Source of the DNA: a virus
Lineage: Duplodnaviria; Heunggongvirae; Uroviricota; Caudoviricetes
DNA length: 6,432 nucleotides
Virus record (IMG/VR): IMGVR_UViG_3300029241_000122
Span: 1-6,432 of that record
Strand: one strand, 5' to 3'
Positions 1 through 3,265 of this stretch are shown here, piece by piece. Each line of letters begins with the position of its first letter. The stretch's first letter is position 1. The notes beneath the pieces are model-generated. The model was not told the origin of the DNA. It ran no database searches and saw only the letters and a program-made list of their open reading frames with translations. Made by a program: the position numbers and the translations under genes.

Positions 1-221
1 TGATAGAAACAGAAGCCACTGGAGCACCTCAAAAACACCATCATACACTAAATCAGTAAGTTGGCAGCATCACCAACATAATCTGTCGCGAGTGCCGGAA
101 GAGTGAAGCTATGCAGCGTGTACTGGCTTTCTATCAGGGTAATTTTCAGGAGGCGGTACTGTGAGTGAAATTAGCTATCAGGCTTCAATTACCGCTGGCA
201 TTCGCATCAAAGGAGAGGAGC

Positions 222-578
222 ATGGAAATAAAACCAGAGGATGAGTTAAGCAATATCGTTTTATTTCCGGTAAAAGAGGATGACCCTCGTAATCAGGTTA
301 ATTTTCTTTATGAGCCATCGGAAAGACCATATTGTCATCACGCCTCTGTCCGGGTTGACGAAAAAGAGCGTCAGGTCCGCTGTAAAATCTGCGGTGCAGT
401 TGTGGAGCCATTTGACTGGATGCTCTCTGTGGCGAAAAGAGAAACCAGACTGGCAGATGATGTAAGGCTCTTGCGTCAGGAGGAGCGGGAAAGGCGAAAA
501 AATATAGAAAAGCTAATTCAGATTGAGCGTAACGCGAAAGCGCGGATACGCAGGGCGACAAAATCCAGAACTGAATAA
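222..578 (+). CDS. Hypothetical protein, 118 aa, with a Cys/His zinc-ribbon-like motif (PYCHH...x13...CKICG) and a basic coiled-coil-like C-terminus
   Basis: ATG at 222 is preceded by the SD AGGAG (211-215) at 6-nt spacing; stop TAA at 576-578. The ORF track uses an in-frame GTG at 165 (alternative start, 11 nt after AGGAGG 148-153). A 27-codon uORF (GTG 161 to TGA 242-244, SD spacing 7 nt) overlaps the ATG and could be a coupled leader. Function unknown. Confidence 0.6.
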   Translation: MEIKPEDELSNIVLFPVKEDDPRNQVNFLYEPSERPYCHHASVRVDEKERQVRCKICGAVVEPFDWMLSVAKRETRLADDVRLLRQEERERRKNIEKLIQIERNAKARIRRATKSRTE

Positions 579-642: not shown

Positions 643-674
643 AGGAGGCCGCCCGAAAGGGCGGTAGTTAAATG
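643..674 (+). promoter_or_regulatory. Structured ribosome-binding site: SD AGGAGG (643-648), then a 6-bp hairpin with GAAA tetraloop (649-664), then ATG (672)
   Basis: CCGCCC GAAA GGGCGG is a perfect 6-bp GC stem with a GNRA loop lying between the SD and the start codon. Linear SD-to-ATG spacing is 23 nt; with the hairpin folded the effective spacing is about 7 nt. No U-tract follows, so it is not a terminator. Confidence 0.35.
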
Positions 675-854
675 CGAAAGTTTAAAATAATTATTGAAAC
701 GGGAATAGCCGGTGGAGATTTCGAGGATGAATTCGAAGTGGATGATGATGCGACGCCTGATGAAATACATGACGAAGCAAAAGATATTTTCTTTAACTAC
801 TGCAATTACTCATATCACGAAATAAAAGACGAAGAGGAAGAACAAAATGGCTGA
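672..854 (+). CDS. Small highly acidic protein, 60 aa (D/E-rich, ends KDEEEEQNG)
   Basis: ORF with ATG at 672 directly after the hairpin-bridged SD. Its stop TGA (852-854) overlaps the next ATG (847) in an ATGGCTGA arrangement. Strongly acidic composition. Function unknown. Confidence 0.6.
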   Translation: MRKFKIIIETGIAGGDFEDEFEVDDDATPDEIHDEAKDIFFNYCNYSYHEIKDEEEEQNG

Positions 855-1023
855 TTTTGGTTCAACTAAATACAACGTCAGTTTTGAAGAATGGCATGAA
901 CTGTTAATGGGCTATGCAGAGTTACGTGGTGGCAGTGCTGCTGATGCTGAAGCATGGCGTGATGATTATGAAGCAGGAAAAACTCCGGTCGAAGCATATT
1001 GTGATGAGTGGGGCGATGAATGA
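847..1023 (+). CDS. Small acidic protein, 58 aa (MADFGSTKYNVSFEEWHELLMGYAELRGG...CDEWGDE)
   Basis: Falls below the 60-aa ORF-track cutoff and was found by hand translation. SD GAGGAAG lies about 7 nt upstream of ATG 847. Its stop overlaps the next ATG as ATGA (1020-1023). Composition is protein-like. Confidence 0.55.
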   Translation: MADFGSTKYNVSFEEWHELLMGYAELRGGSAADAEAWRDDYEAGKTPVEAYCDEWGDE

Positions 1024-1336
1024 GCGAGGTTAATTATCAGGAAGGGCATGAAACGGCGGGGCAAGCAAAAACAGTGGCATGGCGATATCGCTACGTGAAA
1101 AAAAAGGCGTTACGGACTTTCAGGGGAAGTAGTGGTCTGGTGACTGGAAATATGTACCGAAAAAAGAGGATTGTAACGACAGGCCGAACTATGAAATTCA
1201 GGCCTTATTCACTGCCCCGCCAGTCCCGGTTACATCAGAAGAACTGGTTAAAGCTGTGCACTTTTATGAACAACTAAAACGCGAAAATCCACCAGCATCC
1301 GGAAACCTGATTACAGATTCCCAGATAAGGCAATGA
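1020..1336 (+). pseudogene. Frame-disrupted ORF: N-terminal part in frame 0 (MSEVNYQEGHETAGQAKTVAWRYRYVKKK...), C-terminal part in the -1 frame (...DWKYVPKKEDCNDRPNYEIQALFTAPPVPVTSEELVKAVHFYEQLKRENPPASGNLITDSQIRQ, stop 1334-1336)
   Basis: Frame 0 after the A8 run (1098-1105) turns R/K-rich and junk-like. The -1 frame from 1133 to 1336 reads like real protein but has no start codon. Two in-frame A_AAA_AAG heptamers lie at 1100-1106 and 1160-1166. Either a homopolymer frameshift pseudogene or a -1 frameshift site. Confidence 0.4.
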
Positions 1337-1769: not shown

Positions 1770-1888
1770 GACTGCGGGTGCTTGAGGCTATCTGTCTCAG
1801 GCATGAACACCAAAAGGCAGATAGAGAAAAGCCCCAGTTAACATTACGCGTCCTGCAAGACGCTTAACATTAATCTGAGGCCATATCT

Positions 1889-1948
1889 ATGCGACACATA
1901 GAGATTAGCCTCTTACGGACCGAAAGGTCAAGGAGAAGCAGGCTATGA
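1889..1948 (+). CDS. mok-like 19-codon leader ORF translationally coupled to hok (stop TGA overlaps the hok ATG in CTATGAAG)
   Basis: ATG 1889 to TGA 1946-1948, 4-nt overlap with the hok start. Position matches mok in hok/sok loci, but the ORF is much shorter than R1 mok. Confidence 0.4.
   Translation: MRHIEISLLRTERSRRSRL
1902..1931 (-). promoter_or_regulatory. Candidate Sok-like antisense promoter (minus strand: -35 TTGACC, 18-bp spacer, -10 TAATCT)
   Basis: The reverse complement of 1902-1931 reads TTGACC-N18-TAATCT. Transcription would run leftward from about 1895, antisense to the mok-like start region, as the Sok RNA does in hok/sok systems. No clean terminator was found for it. Confidence 0.3.
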
Positions 1949-2109
1949 AGCAGCAAAAGGCGATGTTAATCGCCCTGATCGTCATCTGTTTAACCGTCAT
2001 AGTGANNNNNNNNNNNNNNNNNNNNNNNNNNNNNNNCCTCTGCGAGGTATGAATCCGAACCGGCCAGACGGAGGTCGCTGTCTTCACAGCTTACGAACCT
2101 GAGGAGTAA
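1945..2109 (+). pseudogene. hokD: Hok/Gef family type I toxin gene (HokD/RelF-like), interrupted by a 31-N run and carrying an in-frame TGA at 2050-2052
   Basis: N-terminus MKQQKAMLIALIVICLTVIV matches HokD as recalled. After the N-run the frame reads LCEV-TGA-IRTGQTEVAVFTAYEPEE-TAA, i.e. the conserved Hok C-terminus with TGA where Arg (CGA) is expected. SD AAGGAG lies about 10 nt upstream of the ATG. Confidence 0.65.
2006..2036. other. Run of 31 N (unresolved or masked bases) inside the hok ORF
   Basis: Seen directly in the sequence. If the length is exact, the hok frame is preserved across it. Confidence 0.95.
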
Positions 2110-2178
2110 GAGACCTGGCGGGGGAGAAATCCCTCGCCACCTCTGATGTGTCAGGCATCCTCAACGCACCCGCACTTA

Positions 2179-2204
2179 ACCCGCTTCGGCGGGTTTTGTT
2201 TTTT
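2179..2204 (+). terminator. Rho-independent terminator at the hok mRNA 3' end
   Basis: ACCCGC-TTCG-GCGGGT hairpin (6-bp stem, UUCG tetraloop) immediately followed by TTTGTTTTTT. A second GC-rich hairpin lies upstream at about 2113-2136. Confidence 0.8.
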
Positions 2205-2550: not shown

Positions 2551-2958
2551 GTGCGGGTATTACTTAGACCTGTTCTGGTGCCTGAGCTTGGGCTGGTGGT
2601 CCTTAAGCCGGGCCGTGAATCCATACAGATATTTCATAATCCTCGAGTGCTGGTGGAGCCGGAACCGAAAAGCATGCGTAATCTGCCGTCCGGGGTTGTT
2701 CCTGCCGTTCGCCAGCCGCTAGTGGAAGACAAAACATTGCTGCCGTTTTTCAGTAACGCACGGGTGATTCGTGCTGCTGGTGGTGCTGGTGCATTGTCTG
2801 ACTGGCTGTTGCGCCATATTAAATCCTGCCAGTGGCCACACGGCGATTATCATCACAGCGAAACCGTCATTCACCGTTATGGTACCGGCGCAATGGTGTT
2901 GTGCTGGCACTGCGACAACCAGCTGCGTGACCAGACAGGCGACCGCAATCATTACTGA
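2551..2958 (+). CDS. Cys/His-rich, zinc-binding-like C-terminal domain protein (CQWPHGDYHH...CWHCDNQ); resembles DUF968-type lambdoid prophage proteins (YdfU/YdaW-like), probably a fragment
   Basis: Starts at GTG 2551; stop TGA 2956-2958 abuts the ATG of the Rz fragment. The family assignment is from memory and unverified. Confidence 0.45.
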   Translation: MRVLLRPVLVPELGLVVLKPGRESIQIFHNPRVLVEPEPKSMRNLPSGVVPAVRQPLVEDKTLLPFFSNARVIRAAGGAGALSDWLLRHIKSCQWPHGDYHHSETVIHRYGTGAMVLCWHCDNQLRDQTGDRNHY

Positions 2959-2959
2959 C

Positions 2960-3265
2960 ATGCAGATACGCCAGCGTGATGTTGCTGCACTCGATGCAAA
3001 ATACCTGAAGGAGTTAGCTGATGCGAAAGCTGAAAATGATGCTCTGCGTGATGATGTTGCCGCTGGTCGTCGTCGGTTGCGCATCAAAGCAGTCTGTCAG
3101 TCAGTGCGTGAAGCCACCGCCACCTCCAGCGTGGATAATGCAGTCTCCCCCAGACTGGCAGACACCGCTGAACGGGATTATTTCACCCTCCGGGAACGAC
3201 TGGTAATGATGCAGGCCCAACTTGAAGGTGCTCAGCAATACATAACCGAACAGTGTTTAAAGTAA
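2960..3265 (+). pseudogene. rzpR: N-terminally truncated Rz i-spanin (lysis gene remnant)
   Basis: Translation ...ITDMQIRQRDVAALDAKYLKELADAKAENDALRDDVAAGRRRLRIKAVCQSVREATA...DYFTLRERLVMMQAQLEGAQQYITEQCLK closely matches the C-terminal two-thirds of lambda Rz. The N-terminal TM segment is missing. The longer track ORF from 2771 is an out-of-frame read of the upstream gene. Confidence 0.75.
3021..3206 (+). CDS. rzoR: Rz1 o-spanin outer-membrane lipoprotein, embedded in the +1 frame of Rz
   Basis: MRKLKMMLCVMMLPLVVVGC with lipobox VVGC, proline-rich PPPPPAW segment, 61 aa, near-identical to lambda Rz1 as recalled. SD AAGGAG lies 7 nt upstream of ATG 3021. Confidence 0.8.
   Translation: MRKLKMMLCVMMLPLVVVGCASKQSVSQCVKPPPPPAWIMQSPPDWQTPLNGIISPSGNDW

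What the first reader, a model, noticed from the sequence alone, without database searches (positions are those of the whole stretch)
1020..1336. Frame-disrupted ORF with two in-frame A_AAA_AAG slippery heptamers
The gene is split between frame 0 (N-terminus) and the -1 frame (protein-like C-terminus to 1336). Both A-tracts sit on frame-0 codon boundaries as A_AAA_AAG (1100-1106 and 1160-1166), the dnaX/IS911-type -1 slippery sequence. A -1 slip at the second heptamer would join the two parts into a protein of about 105 aa. Alternatives are a homopolymer indel pseudogene or a sequencing error in the A8 run.
Basis: partly seen in the sequence, partly recalled or inferred. Interest (0 to 1): 0.5.

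Follow-up and report, generated by a model that had tools for sequence, protein, structure and literature searches.

The report
Decayed prophage gene, not programmed frameshifting
The split reading frame is a small E. coli prophage gene of unknown function that was inactivated by a stop codon and a two-base expansion of an A-run; the two "slippery" A-rich heptamers are by-products of that decay, not a recoding signal, so the finding is ordinary.

Summary
An ORF starting at 1020 is split between two frames, and A8 (1098-1105) and A6 (1160-1165) both read A_AAA_AAG in the frame of the ATG.

The programmed-frameshift reading fails. Intact homologs encode the whole 104-aa protein in one frame, with A6 at the first tract. 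The window therefore carries a +2 expansion (A6 to A8) there, plus a TAG (1130-1132) in the homologous frame between the two tracts.

The real frame break is at the first tract. A slip at the second heptamer would replace 20 strongly conserved residues in the core of a confidently predicted beta-sheet with out-of-frame sequence. The second heptamer is absent from most homologs (ACAAAAG). Neither site has a dnaX-type upstream SD-like element or a downstream structure better than shuffled sequence, and Rfam finds no frameshift element.

The first tract is A5 to A9 in copies that carry the TAG. It kept the A6 length in all 26 sampled copies that align through the TAG-free site. The A8 allele is exact in about 326 complete E. 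coli genomes, including CFT073, so it is not a sequencing error. RefSeq already annotates it as a pseudogene, "frameshifted; internal stop". Verdict: a known, ordinary prophage pseudogene of low interest.

The parts
1020..1336 (+). Whole pseudogene: remnant of a 104-aa prophage protein of unknown function (phrog_660 family).
   Evidence: RefSeq/PGAP annotates the identical sequence as a pseudogene, 'frameshifted; internal stop', in SK1144, CFT073 and EC24. The intact ortholog L005 is 95% identical in DNA. The intact protein matches phrog_660 at E = 3.6e-31.
1020..1097 (+). N-terminal 26 codons, in the frame of ATG1020 and homologous to the intact protein (MSEVNYQEGHETAGQAKTVAWRYRYV).
   Evidence: The W21-R22-Y23-R24-Y25 motif is invariant or nearly so in 120 homologs.
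1098..1105 (+). A8 homopolymer. The ancestral state is A6 (Lys27-Lys28), so this is a +2 expansion, and it is the true frame break.
   Evidence: Alignments show A6 in intact L005; A6, A7, A8 and A9 in TAG-bearing genome copies (L004, L003, window, L002); and A5 in two short Logan contigs.
1100..1106 (+). First A_AAA_AAG heptamer in frame 0. It exists only because of the tract expansion. A -1 slip here gives GVTDFQGK and then stops at the TAG.
   Evidence: phase and translation; no downstream structure (z = 0.62); no SD-like element near -10.
1106..1129 (+). Codons 29-36 of the ancestral protein (GVTDFQGK), readable only in the -1 frame.
   Evidence: matches the family consensus G29 V30 T31 D32 x Q34 G35.
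1130..1132 (+). TAG nonsense codon in the homologous (-1) frame, at the position of codon 37 of the intact protein (CTG/Leu in L005; Pro, Met, Leu or Gln across the family).
   Evidence: PGAP note 'internal stop'. L002, with A9, is back in frame and is annotated with 'internal stop' only.
1133..1336 (+). Rest of the ancestral coding sequence in the -1 frame (WSGDWKYVPKKEDCNDRPNYEIQALF...IRQ), ending at TGA 1334-1336.
   Evidence: Nearly identical to the intact protein. Includes the conserved W38, G40, D41, W42, K43, Y44, V45 and P46.
1160..1166 (+). Second A_AAA_AAG heptamer in frame 0. In the ancestral frame it is Lys47-Lys48 followed by the G of Glu49. Most homologs have ACAAAAG (Thr47) instead.
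   Evidence: phase. L005 and L006 have ACAAAAG; position 47 is T in 110/120 and K in 9/120; no stimulators.
1275..1277 (+). TAA that ends the out-of-frame 85-aa ORF read from ATG1020 without any shift.
   Evidence: The same 258-nt ORF is annotated as a CDS in phage record ON470612.1.
1020..1023 (+). ATGA start/stop overlap with the upstream ORF 847-1023, typical of tightly packed phage early genes.

Best explanation
Window 1020-1336 is a decaying pseudogene in a defective Rac/Qin-type lambdoid prophage of E. coli.

The ancestral gene encoded, in a single frame, a protein of about 104 aa with unknown function. It has a small beta-sheet module with a PVAWRYRY...W...CN...L motif, often fused elsewhere to DUF551 or Ea22-like modules.

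In the lineage of the window a nonsense mutation created TAG at codon 37. The neighbouring Lys-Lys A6 run then changed length by replication slippage, reaching A8 here (+2). The order of these two events is inferred.

Translation from ATG1020 therefore gives 26 native residues, three lysines from the A8 run, and 56 out-of-frame residues ending at 1277. The two A_AAA_AAG heptamers are incidental. The first was created by the expansion. The second is a lineage-specific Lys-Lys pair that happens to fall in the slippery phase of the wrong frame.

Shown directly: the lesions, single-frame encoding in homologs, conservation of the inter-tract segment, the tract polymorphism, and the lack of stimulators. 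Inferred: that no functional product is made.
For: (1) The intact ortholog L005 (WP_001529162.1) reads through in one frame with A6 and CTG where the window has A8 and TAG.

(2) PGAP marks the identical sequence 'frameshifted; internal stop' in three genomes. The A9 allele, which restores the frame, is marked 'internal stop' only.

(3) The window's -1 frame between the tracts (GVTDFQGK*WSGDWKYVPKK) matches residues conserved in at least 94% of 120 homologs: W38, G40, D41, W42, K43, Y44, V45, P46. W42 is kept in 50 of 51 distant relatives at 26-62% identity. So the break is at tract 1.

(4) Tract 1 varies only where the TAG is present. In the window's exact 75-nt context there are about 326 A8, about 48 A7, 1 A9 and 0 A6 genomes, plus a large A6+TAG group that differs by one SNP. 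All 26 sampled rows that align over the full length of the intact-type query, through its TAG-free end, match a 73-nt stretch, meaning no net length change from A6.

(5) There are no recoding signals. Folding downstream of either heptamer is no better than shuffles (z = 0.10 and 0.62). The best hairpin starting 3-10 nt after heptamer 2 is -3.3 kcal/mol, and there is no SD-like element near -10. Rfam finds no frameshift element.

(6) The neighbourhood is a degraded prophage with a truncated DUF968 gene, a partial Rz and a partial ynaK.
Against: A_AAA_AAG is the most shift-prone heptamer in E. coli (PMC5009743), so a trace of -1 slippage at 1160-1166 cannot be excluded.

Because A8 moves ribosomes out of the frame that holds the TAG, a slip at heptamer 2 would in principle give a full-length chimera.

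Two rare alleles (P0005, P0092) restore a 105-aa ORF by a further +1 insertion while keeping A8. This could hint at residual selection for the C-terminal part.

The tract census rests on identity bands and spread samples of BLAST hits, not on a full count over a phylogeny. No expression data were available.
Confidence: 0.9

Rival explanations
1. Programmed -1 ribosomal frameshifting at the second A_AAA_AAG (1160-1166) joins the frame-0 N-terminus to the -1 frame C-terminus, giving a functional protein of about 105 aa.
For: The heptamer is in the correct phase and is the most slippery one known in E. coli (PMC5009743, PMC1851650). The route avoids the TAG at 1130-1132, which lies in the other frame.
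Against: Homologs are encoded in a single frame. The fusion would replace residues 29-48, which are at least 94% conserved at eight positions and contribute the end of one strand and two further strands of a beta-sheet predicted at pLDDT 94-97.

The heptamer is absent (ACAAAAG) from intact homologs. There is no SD-like element near -10, no hairpin 5-8 nt downstream and no Rfam frameshift element, whereas dnaX depends on both stimulators (PMC1851650). Heptamers without stimulators reach only 2-10 times a 0.055% background (PMC4066793).

The two frame-restored alleles found in NCBI or longer Logan assemblies restore the frame elsewhere, not at this heptamer.
Confidence: 0.03
2. The A8 run is a sequencing or assembly error in an otherwise intact gene.
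For: Homopolymer runs are error-prone. Two 1-kb Logan contigs show several homopolymer length changes in this gene that look like read errors.
Against: The exact 75-nt A8+TAG sequence occurs in about 326 complete genomes from many laboratories, including CFT073, and in phage record ON470612.1, where the 85-aa frame-0 ORF is annotated. Correcting the tract would still leave the TAG.
Confidence: 0.01
3. The A-run is a contingency (phase-variation) tract, or a transcriptional-slippage site, that switches expression of the gene on and off.
For: The tract length is polymorphic, A5 to A9, among nearly identical prophages. Long A-runs can support transcriptional slippage (PMC5009743).
Against: In every TAG-bearing copy the in-frame state (A6 or A9) runs into the TAG eight codons later, so there is no ON state. 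Sampled copies without the TAG show no length variation, 26 of 26. The Lys-Lys pair is not conserved in distant relatives.
Confidence: 0.03
4. The locus is being repaired by evolution. A8 moves ribosomes past the TAG in another frame, a second +1 indel then restores the frame, and the A8 allele is a selected intermediate.
For: P0005 (T inserted right after the TAG; L009, NCBI assembly) and P0092 (A inserted in CCGAAC; L010-L013) both keep A8 and regain a 105-aa ORF.
Against: Both alleles are rare: 2 samples, and 10 contigs from neighbouring run accessions. They were found through a database that holds only called ORFs, so frame-restoring indels are preferentially seen. The restored proteins still carry 10 to 28 out-of-frame residues within the conserved core. 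The A8-only allele has no full-length ORF and is by far the more common form.
Confidence: 0.04

Closest known systems
E. coli dnaX and IS911/IS3 -1 programmed frameshift sites (A_AAA_AAG)
   Same: The heptamer sequence is identical and sits in the slippery phase relative to the upstream ATG.
   Different: There is no SD-like element about 10 nt upstream and no stem-loop or pseudoknot 5-8 nt downstream. The heptamer and the two-frame layout are not conserved in homologs. The trans-frame product would lack a conserved core segment.
Prophage pseudogenes annotated by RefSeq/PGAP as 'frameshifted; internal stop' (for example DAECLI1_RS14300 in SK1144, HGG68_RS25130 in CFT073, ACM2ZA_RS12250 in EC24)
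   Same: The sequence is identical to the window over 1000-1360 in SK1144 and 100% identical over 97% of the whole window in EC24, with the same lesions.
   Different: Nothing differs. This work adds only which lesions are present (A6 to A8, and TAG at codon 37) and their likely order.
WP_001529162.1 (104-aa hypothetical protein, E. coli RIVM_C019217), a member of phrog_660
   Same: It is the intact ortholog, 95% identical in DNA, in the same position between the 58-aa ORF and hokD.
   Different: It has A6 instead of A8, CTG instead of TAG and ACAAAAG instead of AAAAAAG at the second tract, so it reads through in one frame.
Homopolymer-tract phase variation and corrective frameshifting on indel alleles (for example the herpesvirus thymidine kinase G-run, reviewed in PMC5009743)
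   Same: A gene is disrupted at a homopolymer whose length varies among isolates.
   Different: No tract length gives a full reading frame here because of the downstream TAG, and nothing indicates that a low-level product is used.

Membership tests
Programmed -1 ribosomal frameshift site (dnaX / IS911 type) | X_XXY_YYZ slippery heptamer in the zero frame | tested here: met
   A_AAA_AAG at 1100-1106 and 1160-1166, both with the first A at codon position 3 of the ATG1020 frame.
Programmed -1 ribosomal frameshift site (dnaX / IS911 type) | Stimulatory hairpin or pseudoknot starting about 5-8 nt downstream | tested here: not met
   Folding of 1167-1250 gives z = 0.10 and of 1107-1190 gives z = 0.62 against shuffles. 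The best closed hairpin starting 3-10 nt after heptamer 2 is -3.3 kcal/mol. Pseudoknots were not searched explicitly.
Programmed -1 ribosomal frameshift site (dnaX / IS911 type) | SD-like element about 10 nt upstream (a stimulator in dnaX) | tested here: not met
   The only sub-matches to the SD sequence are GGTGA at -21 to -17 of heptamer 2 and GTGA at -5 to -2 of heptamer 1. None lies at the dnaX spacing (spacing from PMC1851650).
Programmed -1 ribosomal frameshift site (dnaX / IS911 type) | The heptamer and the two-frame gene layout are conserved among homologs | tested here: not met
   All 120 close and 51 distant homologs are single-frame across this region. Position 47 is Thr (ACA) in 110 of 120. 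Lys27-Lys28 is not conserved in distant relatives.
Programmed -1 ribosomal frameshift site (dnaX / IS911 type) | A match to a curated frameshift-element RNA family | tested here: not met
   A permissive Rfam scan of the window (E up to 1) returns only sok, a sub-threshold isrK hit and a spurious snoRNA hit.
Programmed -1 ribosomal frameshift site (dnaX / IS911 type) | The trans-frame protein is detected experimentally | not testable with these tools
   Needs a reporter assay, mass spectrometry or ribosome profiling.
Pseudogene (homopolymer indel plus nonsense mutation) | Intact single-frame orthologs exist at the same locus | tested here: met
   L005 / WP_001529162.1, in the same neighbourhood.
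Pseudogene (homopolymer indel plus nonsense mutation) | Disabling lesions relative to the intact form | tested here: met
   A6 to A8 at 1098-1105 and TAG at 1130-1132. PGAP note 'frameshifted; internal stop'.
Pseudogene (homopolymer indel plus nonsense mutation) | The lesions are real and not sequencing artefacts | tested here: met
   About 326 complete genomes have the identical 75-nt A8+TAG segment. So does a phage record.
Pseudogene (homopolymer indel plus nonsense mutation) | Signs of relaxed constraint after inactivation | tested here: met
   Tract length is A5 to A9 in TAG-bearing copies, against no length change in 26 of 26 sampled copies that align through the TAG-free site. This is sample-based and not placed on a phylogeny.
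Pseudogene (homopolymer indel plus nonsense mutation) | No functional product is made | not testable with these tools
   No expression data.
phrog_660 (phage protein family of unknown function) | A significant profile match by the encoded (intact) protein | tested here: met
   E = 3.6e-31, residues 2-99. No Pfam family matches the module itself. 9 of 54 relatives also carry DUF551 and one carries Ead/Ea22.

The most novel reading that the evidence does not exclude
The A8+TAG allele is a leaky 'pseudo-pseudogene'. The +2 expansion carries ribosomes past the nonsense codon in another frame, and spontaneous -1 slippage on the unstimulated A_AAA_AAG at 1160-1166 returns a small fraction of them to the native frame. 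This would give a low level of a chimeric protein that keeps the C-terminal helix and last strand and retains some activity. The rare alleles P0005 and P0092, which fix the same detour at the DNA level, would be the evolutionary follow-up.
Probability: 0.03. Interest if true: 0.35.

Novelty: already known. Interest (0 to 1): 0.07.

Why it matters
It matters mainly as a negative result. An in-phase A_AAA_AAG next to a frame break looks like a recoding signal, yet here it is a by-product of pseudogene decay. The case shows that the deciding test is how homologs are encoded, and where exactly the homologous frame changes. Had the frameshift been real, it would have added a small phage accessory gene to the short list of bacterial -1 frameshift genes outside insertion sequences, dnaX and phage tail chaperones. 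The evidence does not support that.

Tried and rejected
- **Stimulatory RNA structure.** I folded 84 nt downstream of each heptamer and searched for closed hairpins starting 3-10 nt downstream. Nothing was better than shuffled sequence.
- **SD-like element at the dnaX spacing.** None found.
- **Rfam, permissive scan of the whole window.** No frameshift element.
- **Function of the ancestral protein.** Pfam gave nothing and PHROGs gave only an unknown-function family. The AlphaFold model is confident for residues 18-63. Foldseek found no PDB match at E <= 0.001 and only weak matches to uncharacterised or Ead/Ea22-like phage proteins. Function remains unknown.
P0065 has the RKK|EDCND junction, but it comes from a single 1-kb Logan contig with A5 and A7 tracts. 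Its sibling P0063 has three homopolymer changes. I judged these to be probable read errors, although the sequencing platform is not known to me. P0005 and P0092 are better supported but restore the frame elsewhere.
- **Exact allele counts from BLAST identity bands.** These needed correcting for about 11 partial 100% matches, so the counts are approximate.
- **First literature search.** It failed on a term-syntax error and was repeated.

Full report
**1. Observation**

An ORF starts at ATG 1020, overlapping the stop of the upstream ORF as ATGA. It contains an A8 run at 1098-1105 and an A6 run at 1160-1165. In the frame of that ATG, both tracts are phased as A_AAA_AAG, at 1100-1106 and 1160-1166. 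Frame 0 runs to TAA 1275-1277, giving an 85-aa ORF. The -1 frame carries a protein-like sequence ending at TGA 1334-1336.

The heptamer count is not remarkable. AAAAAAG occurs 5 times in the window against 2.15 expected, and 9 of 200 shuffles reach 5.

**2. How homologs encode the protein**

A DNA search of 5,426 complete E. coli genomes finds the region in 2,060 of them. PGAP annotates the copy identical to the window as a pseudogene, 'frameshifted; internal stop'. This holds in SK1144, in CFT073 and in EC24, the genome closest to the window at 100% identity over 97% of it.

A copy 95% identical in DNA, L005 from strain RIVM_C019217, has an intact single-frame CDS of 104 aa (WP_001529162.1). 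The nucleotide alignment shows three differences that matter:
- The intact gene has A6 at the first tract (GTG AAA AAA GGC), where the window has A8.
- It has CTG where the window has TAG.
- It has ACAAAAG where the window has the second AAAAAAG.

Other copies carry A9 (L002, annotated 'internal stop' only, because A9 restores the frame), A7 (L003), or A6 with the TAG and a 55-bp insertion (L004).

The frame break is therefore a +2 expansion at the first tract, and there is an independent nonsense lesion. The one correction is that the ancestral tract is A6, not A7.

**3. Where the homologous frame changes**

Among 120 homologs, the segment between the two tracts (residues 29-48, GVTDxQGxxWVGDWKYVPTK) is strongly conserved. 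Counts out of 120 are W38 114, G40 116, D41 115, W42 117, K43 117, Y44 117, V45 116 and P46 113. The window's -1 frame reproduces it (GVTDFQGK*WSGDWKYVPKK).

An exhaustive search of 1.84 billion representative proteins found 95 relatives. Their shared core is about residues 15-75. In 51 distant members (26-62% identity to the query), W42 is kept in 50. It is in the same frame as the upstream PVAWRYR motif and the downstream C51, N52 and L62. The Lys-Lys codons that make the A-tracts are not conserved in those relatives. Position 47 is Thr in 110 of the 120 close homologs.

An AlphaFold model built on this alignment is confident over residues 18-63 (block pLDDT 94-97). That region forms a beta-sheet with strands at 18-31, 37-39, 43-45 and 57-63. 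A slip at the second heptamer would replace the end of the first strand and all of the next two.

**4. Recoding signals**

- The 84 nt downstream of each heptamer fold no better than shuffled sequence, with z = 0.10 and 0.62.
- The best closed hairpin starting 3-10 nt after the second heptamer is -3.3 kcal/mol.
- No SD-like element lies at the dnaX spacing.
- A permissive Rfam scan finds no frameshift element.

According to the literature read here, dnaX frameshifting depends on an SD-like sequence 10 nt upstream and a stem-loop 5 nt downstream (PMC1851650). In E. coli, heptamers without stimulators reach only 2-10 times a background of 0.055% (PMC4066793). A trace of slippage is therefore possible but cannot be called programmed. 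A slip at the first heptamer only leads to the TAG eight codons later.

**5. Population pattern**

I searched with 73-76-nt queries that differ only in tract length, so only exact matches fall in the >=99% identity band. About 11 partial matches had to be subtracted from each band. In the window's exact sequence context the counts are:

| First tract | Complete genomes |
|---|---|
| A8 | about 326, including CFT073 |
| A7 | about 48 |
| A9 | 1 |
| A6 | 0 |

There is also a large A6+TAG group that differs by one SNP, about 40% of a spread sample.

With the intact-type query, all 26 sampled rows that align over its full length, through the TAG-free site, match a 73-nt stretch. That means no net length change from A6.

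So tract length varies only where the gene was already disabled by the TAG, which is the signature of relaxed constraint. The recurrence of A8 in hundreds of independent complete assemblies rules out a sequencing error. So does phage record ON470612.1, which annotates the 85-aa frame-0 ORF.

**6. Frame-restored alleles**

Four database proteins carry out-of-frame residues and then return to the native frame.
- P0005 (L009, an NCBI assembly) keeps A8 and has a T inserted just after the TAG.
- P0092 (L010-L013, Logan assemblies with neighbouring run accessions) keeps A8 and has an A inserted in CCGAAC, after the second tract.
- P0065 and P0063 come from 1-kb Logan contigs with A5/A7 tracts and A5/G3/A5 runs respectively. 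Those most likely reflect homopolymer read errors, although I could not check the sequencing platform.

The two better-supported alleles are rare and restore the frame at places other than the heptamer. They were also found through a database that holds only called ORFs, so I read them as ascertainment of random second-site indels. I keep selection for repair as a low-probability rival.

**7. Context and identity**

The gene lies in the early-right (nin-like) region of a Rac/Qin-type lambdoid prophage. It sits between small ORFs (one a DUF7167 protein, the other a 58-aa hypothetical protein) and the hok/sok locus.

In the window the prophage is degraded. A truncated DUF968 gene abuts a partial Rz/Rz1, followed by trkG and a ParB-like ynaK. 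In SK1144 the same allele sits in a fuller prophage with RusA, an antiterminator and tRNA genes.

The intact protein matches phrog_660, of unknown function, at E = 3.6e-31 and has no Pfam family. Nine of 54 relatives also carry DUF551 and one carries Ead/Ea22. Fold searches found no solved structure and only weak matches to uncharacterised phage proteins. The ancestral function is unknown.

**8. Verdict**

The feature is already annotated as a pseudogene in RefSeq. Confidence in the pseudogene explanation is 0.9 and interest is 0.07.

The most novel reading not excluded is a leaky pseudogene rescued at a very low level by unstimulated slippage at the second heptamer (probability about 0.03).

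Noticed in passing
window 1776-2100 (N run at 2006-2036): A hok/sok type I toxin-antitoxin locus. There is an Rfam sok match at 1776-1947 (106.7 bits against a gathering score of 59) and a Hok/HokD ORF starting at 1945. That ORF is interrupted in the window by a 31-base run of N, so its translation shows X's and its frame cannot be followed across the run.
   Followed up: partly
window 2551-3265: A deletion junction of a degraded prophage. A DUF968-type gene is truncated and abuts a partial Rz lysis gene with an embedded Rz1-like lipoprotein ORF (3021-3206). RusA, the antiterminator, the tRNA genes and the rest of the intervening late region present in the fuller SK1144 prophage (L016) are missing. 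trkG follows, as in the Rac prophage (the Rac comparison is from my own knowledge).
   Followed up: partly
L009:1501-1818 and L010-L013 (homologous to window 1020-1336): Rare alleles keep the A8 run but regain a 105-aa ORF through a second +1 insertion: a T after the TAG in L009, and an A in CCGAAC in L010-L013. This is a two-step detour around the nonsense codon. It may be chance plus ascertainment, or residual selection.
   Followed up: partly
L014:344-631 and L015:532-816: Two 1-kb Logan contigs with neighbouring run accessions show several homopolymer length changes (A5, A7, G3) within about 80 nt of this gene. This is probably homopolymer read error that propagated into the protein database as 'proteins' P0065 and P0063. 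The sequencing platform was not checked.
   Followed up: partly
window 672-1023: Three successive small ORFs overlap at their boundaries: 672-854 (DUF7167), 847-1023, and the pseudogene from 1020. The overlaps are 8 nt at 847-854 and ATGA at 1020-1023, which suggests translational coupling in the ancestral operon.
   Followed up: no
window 2118-2199: A weak, sub-threshold Rfam match to the isrK Hfq-binding sRNA (27.2 bits against a gathering score of 50, E = 0.0076), downstream of hok. isrK is a prophage-borne sRNA (from my own knowledge), so this might be a diverged relative.
   Followed up: no
L004:621-1042 and L007:2955-3376: A widespread variant of the same pseudogene has A6, the TAG and a 55-bp insertion near the 3' end. 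In L007, an assembly labelled DH5alpha, it sits in a Qin-like context: after dicC, and before a truncated ISNCY transposase, ydfW and flxA. The neighbouring DUF7167 gene is also a pseudogene there.
   Followed up: no
window 165-578: This 137-aa ORF has a weak zinc-ribbon match (Pfam Zn_Ribbon_TF, E = 2.2e-4, below the gathering score) and no NCBIfam family. RefSeq annotates a shorter 118-aa 'hypothetical protein' at this position (WP_000403785.1).
   Followed up: no
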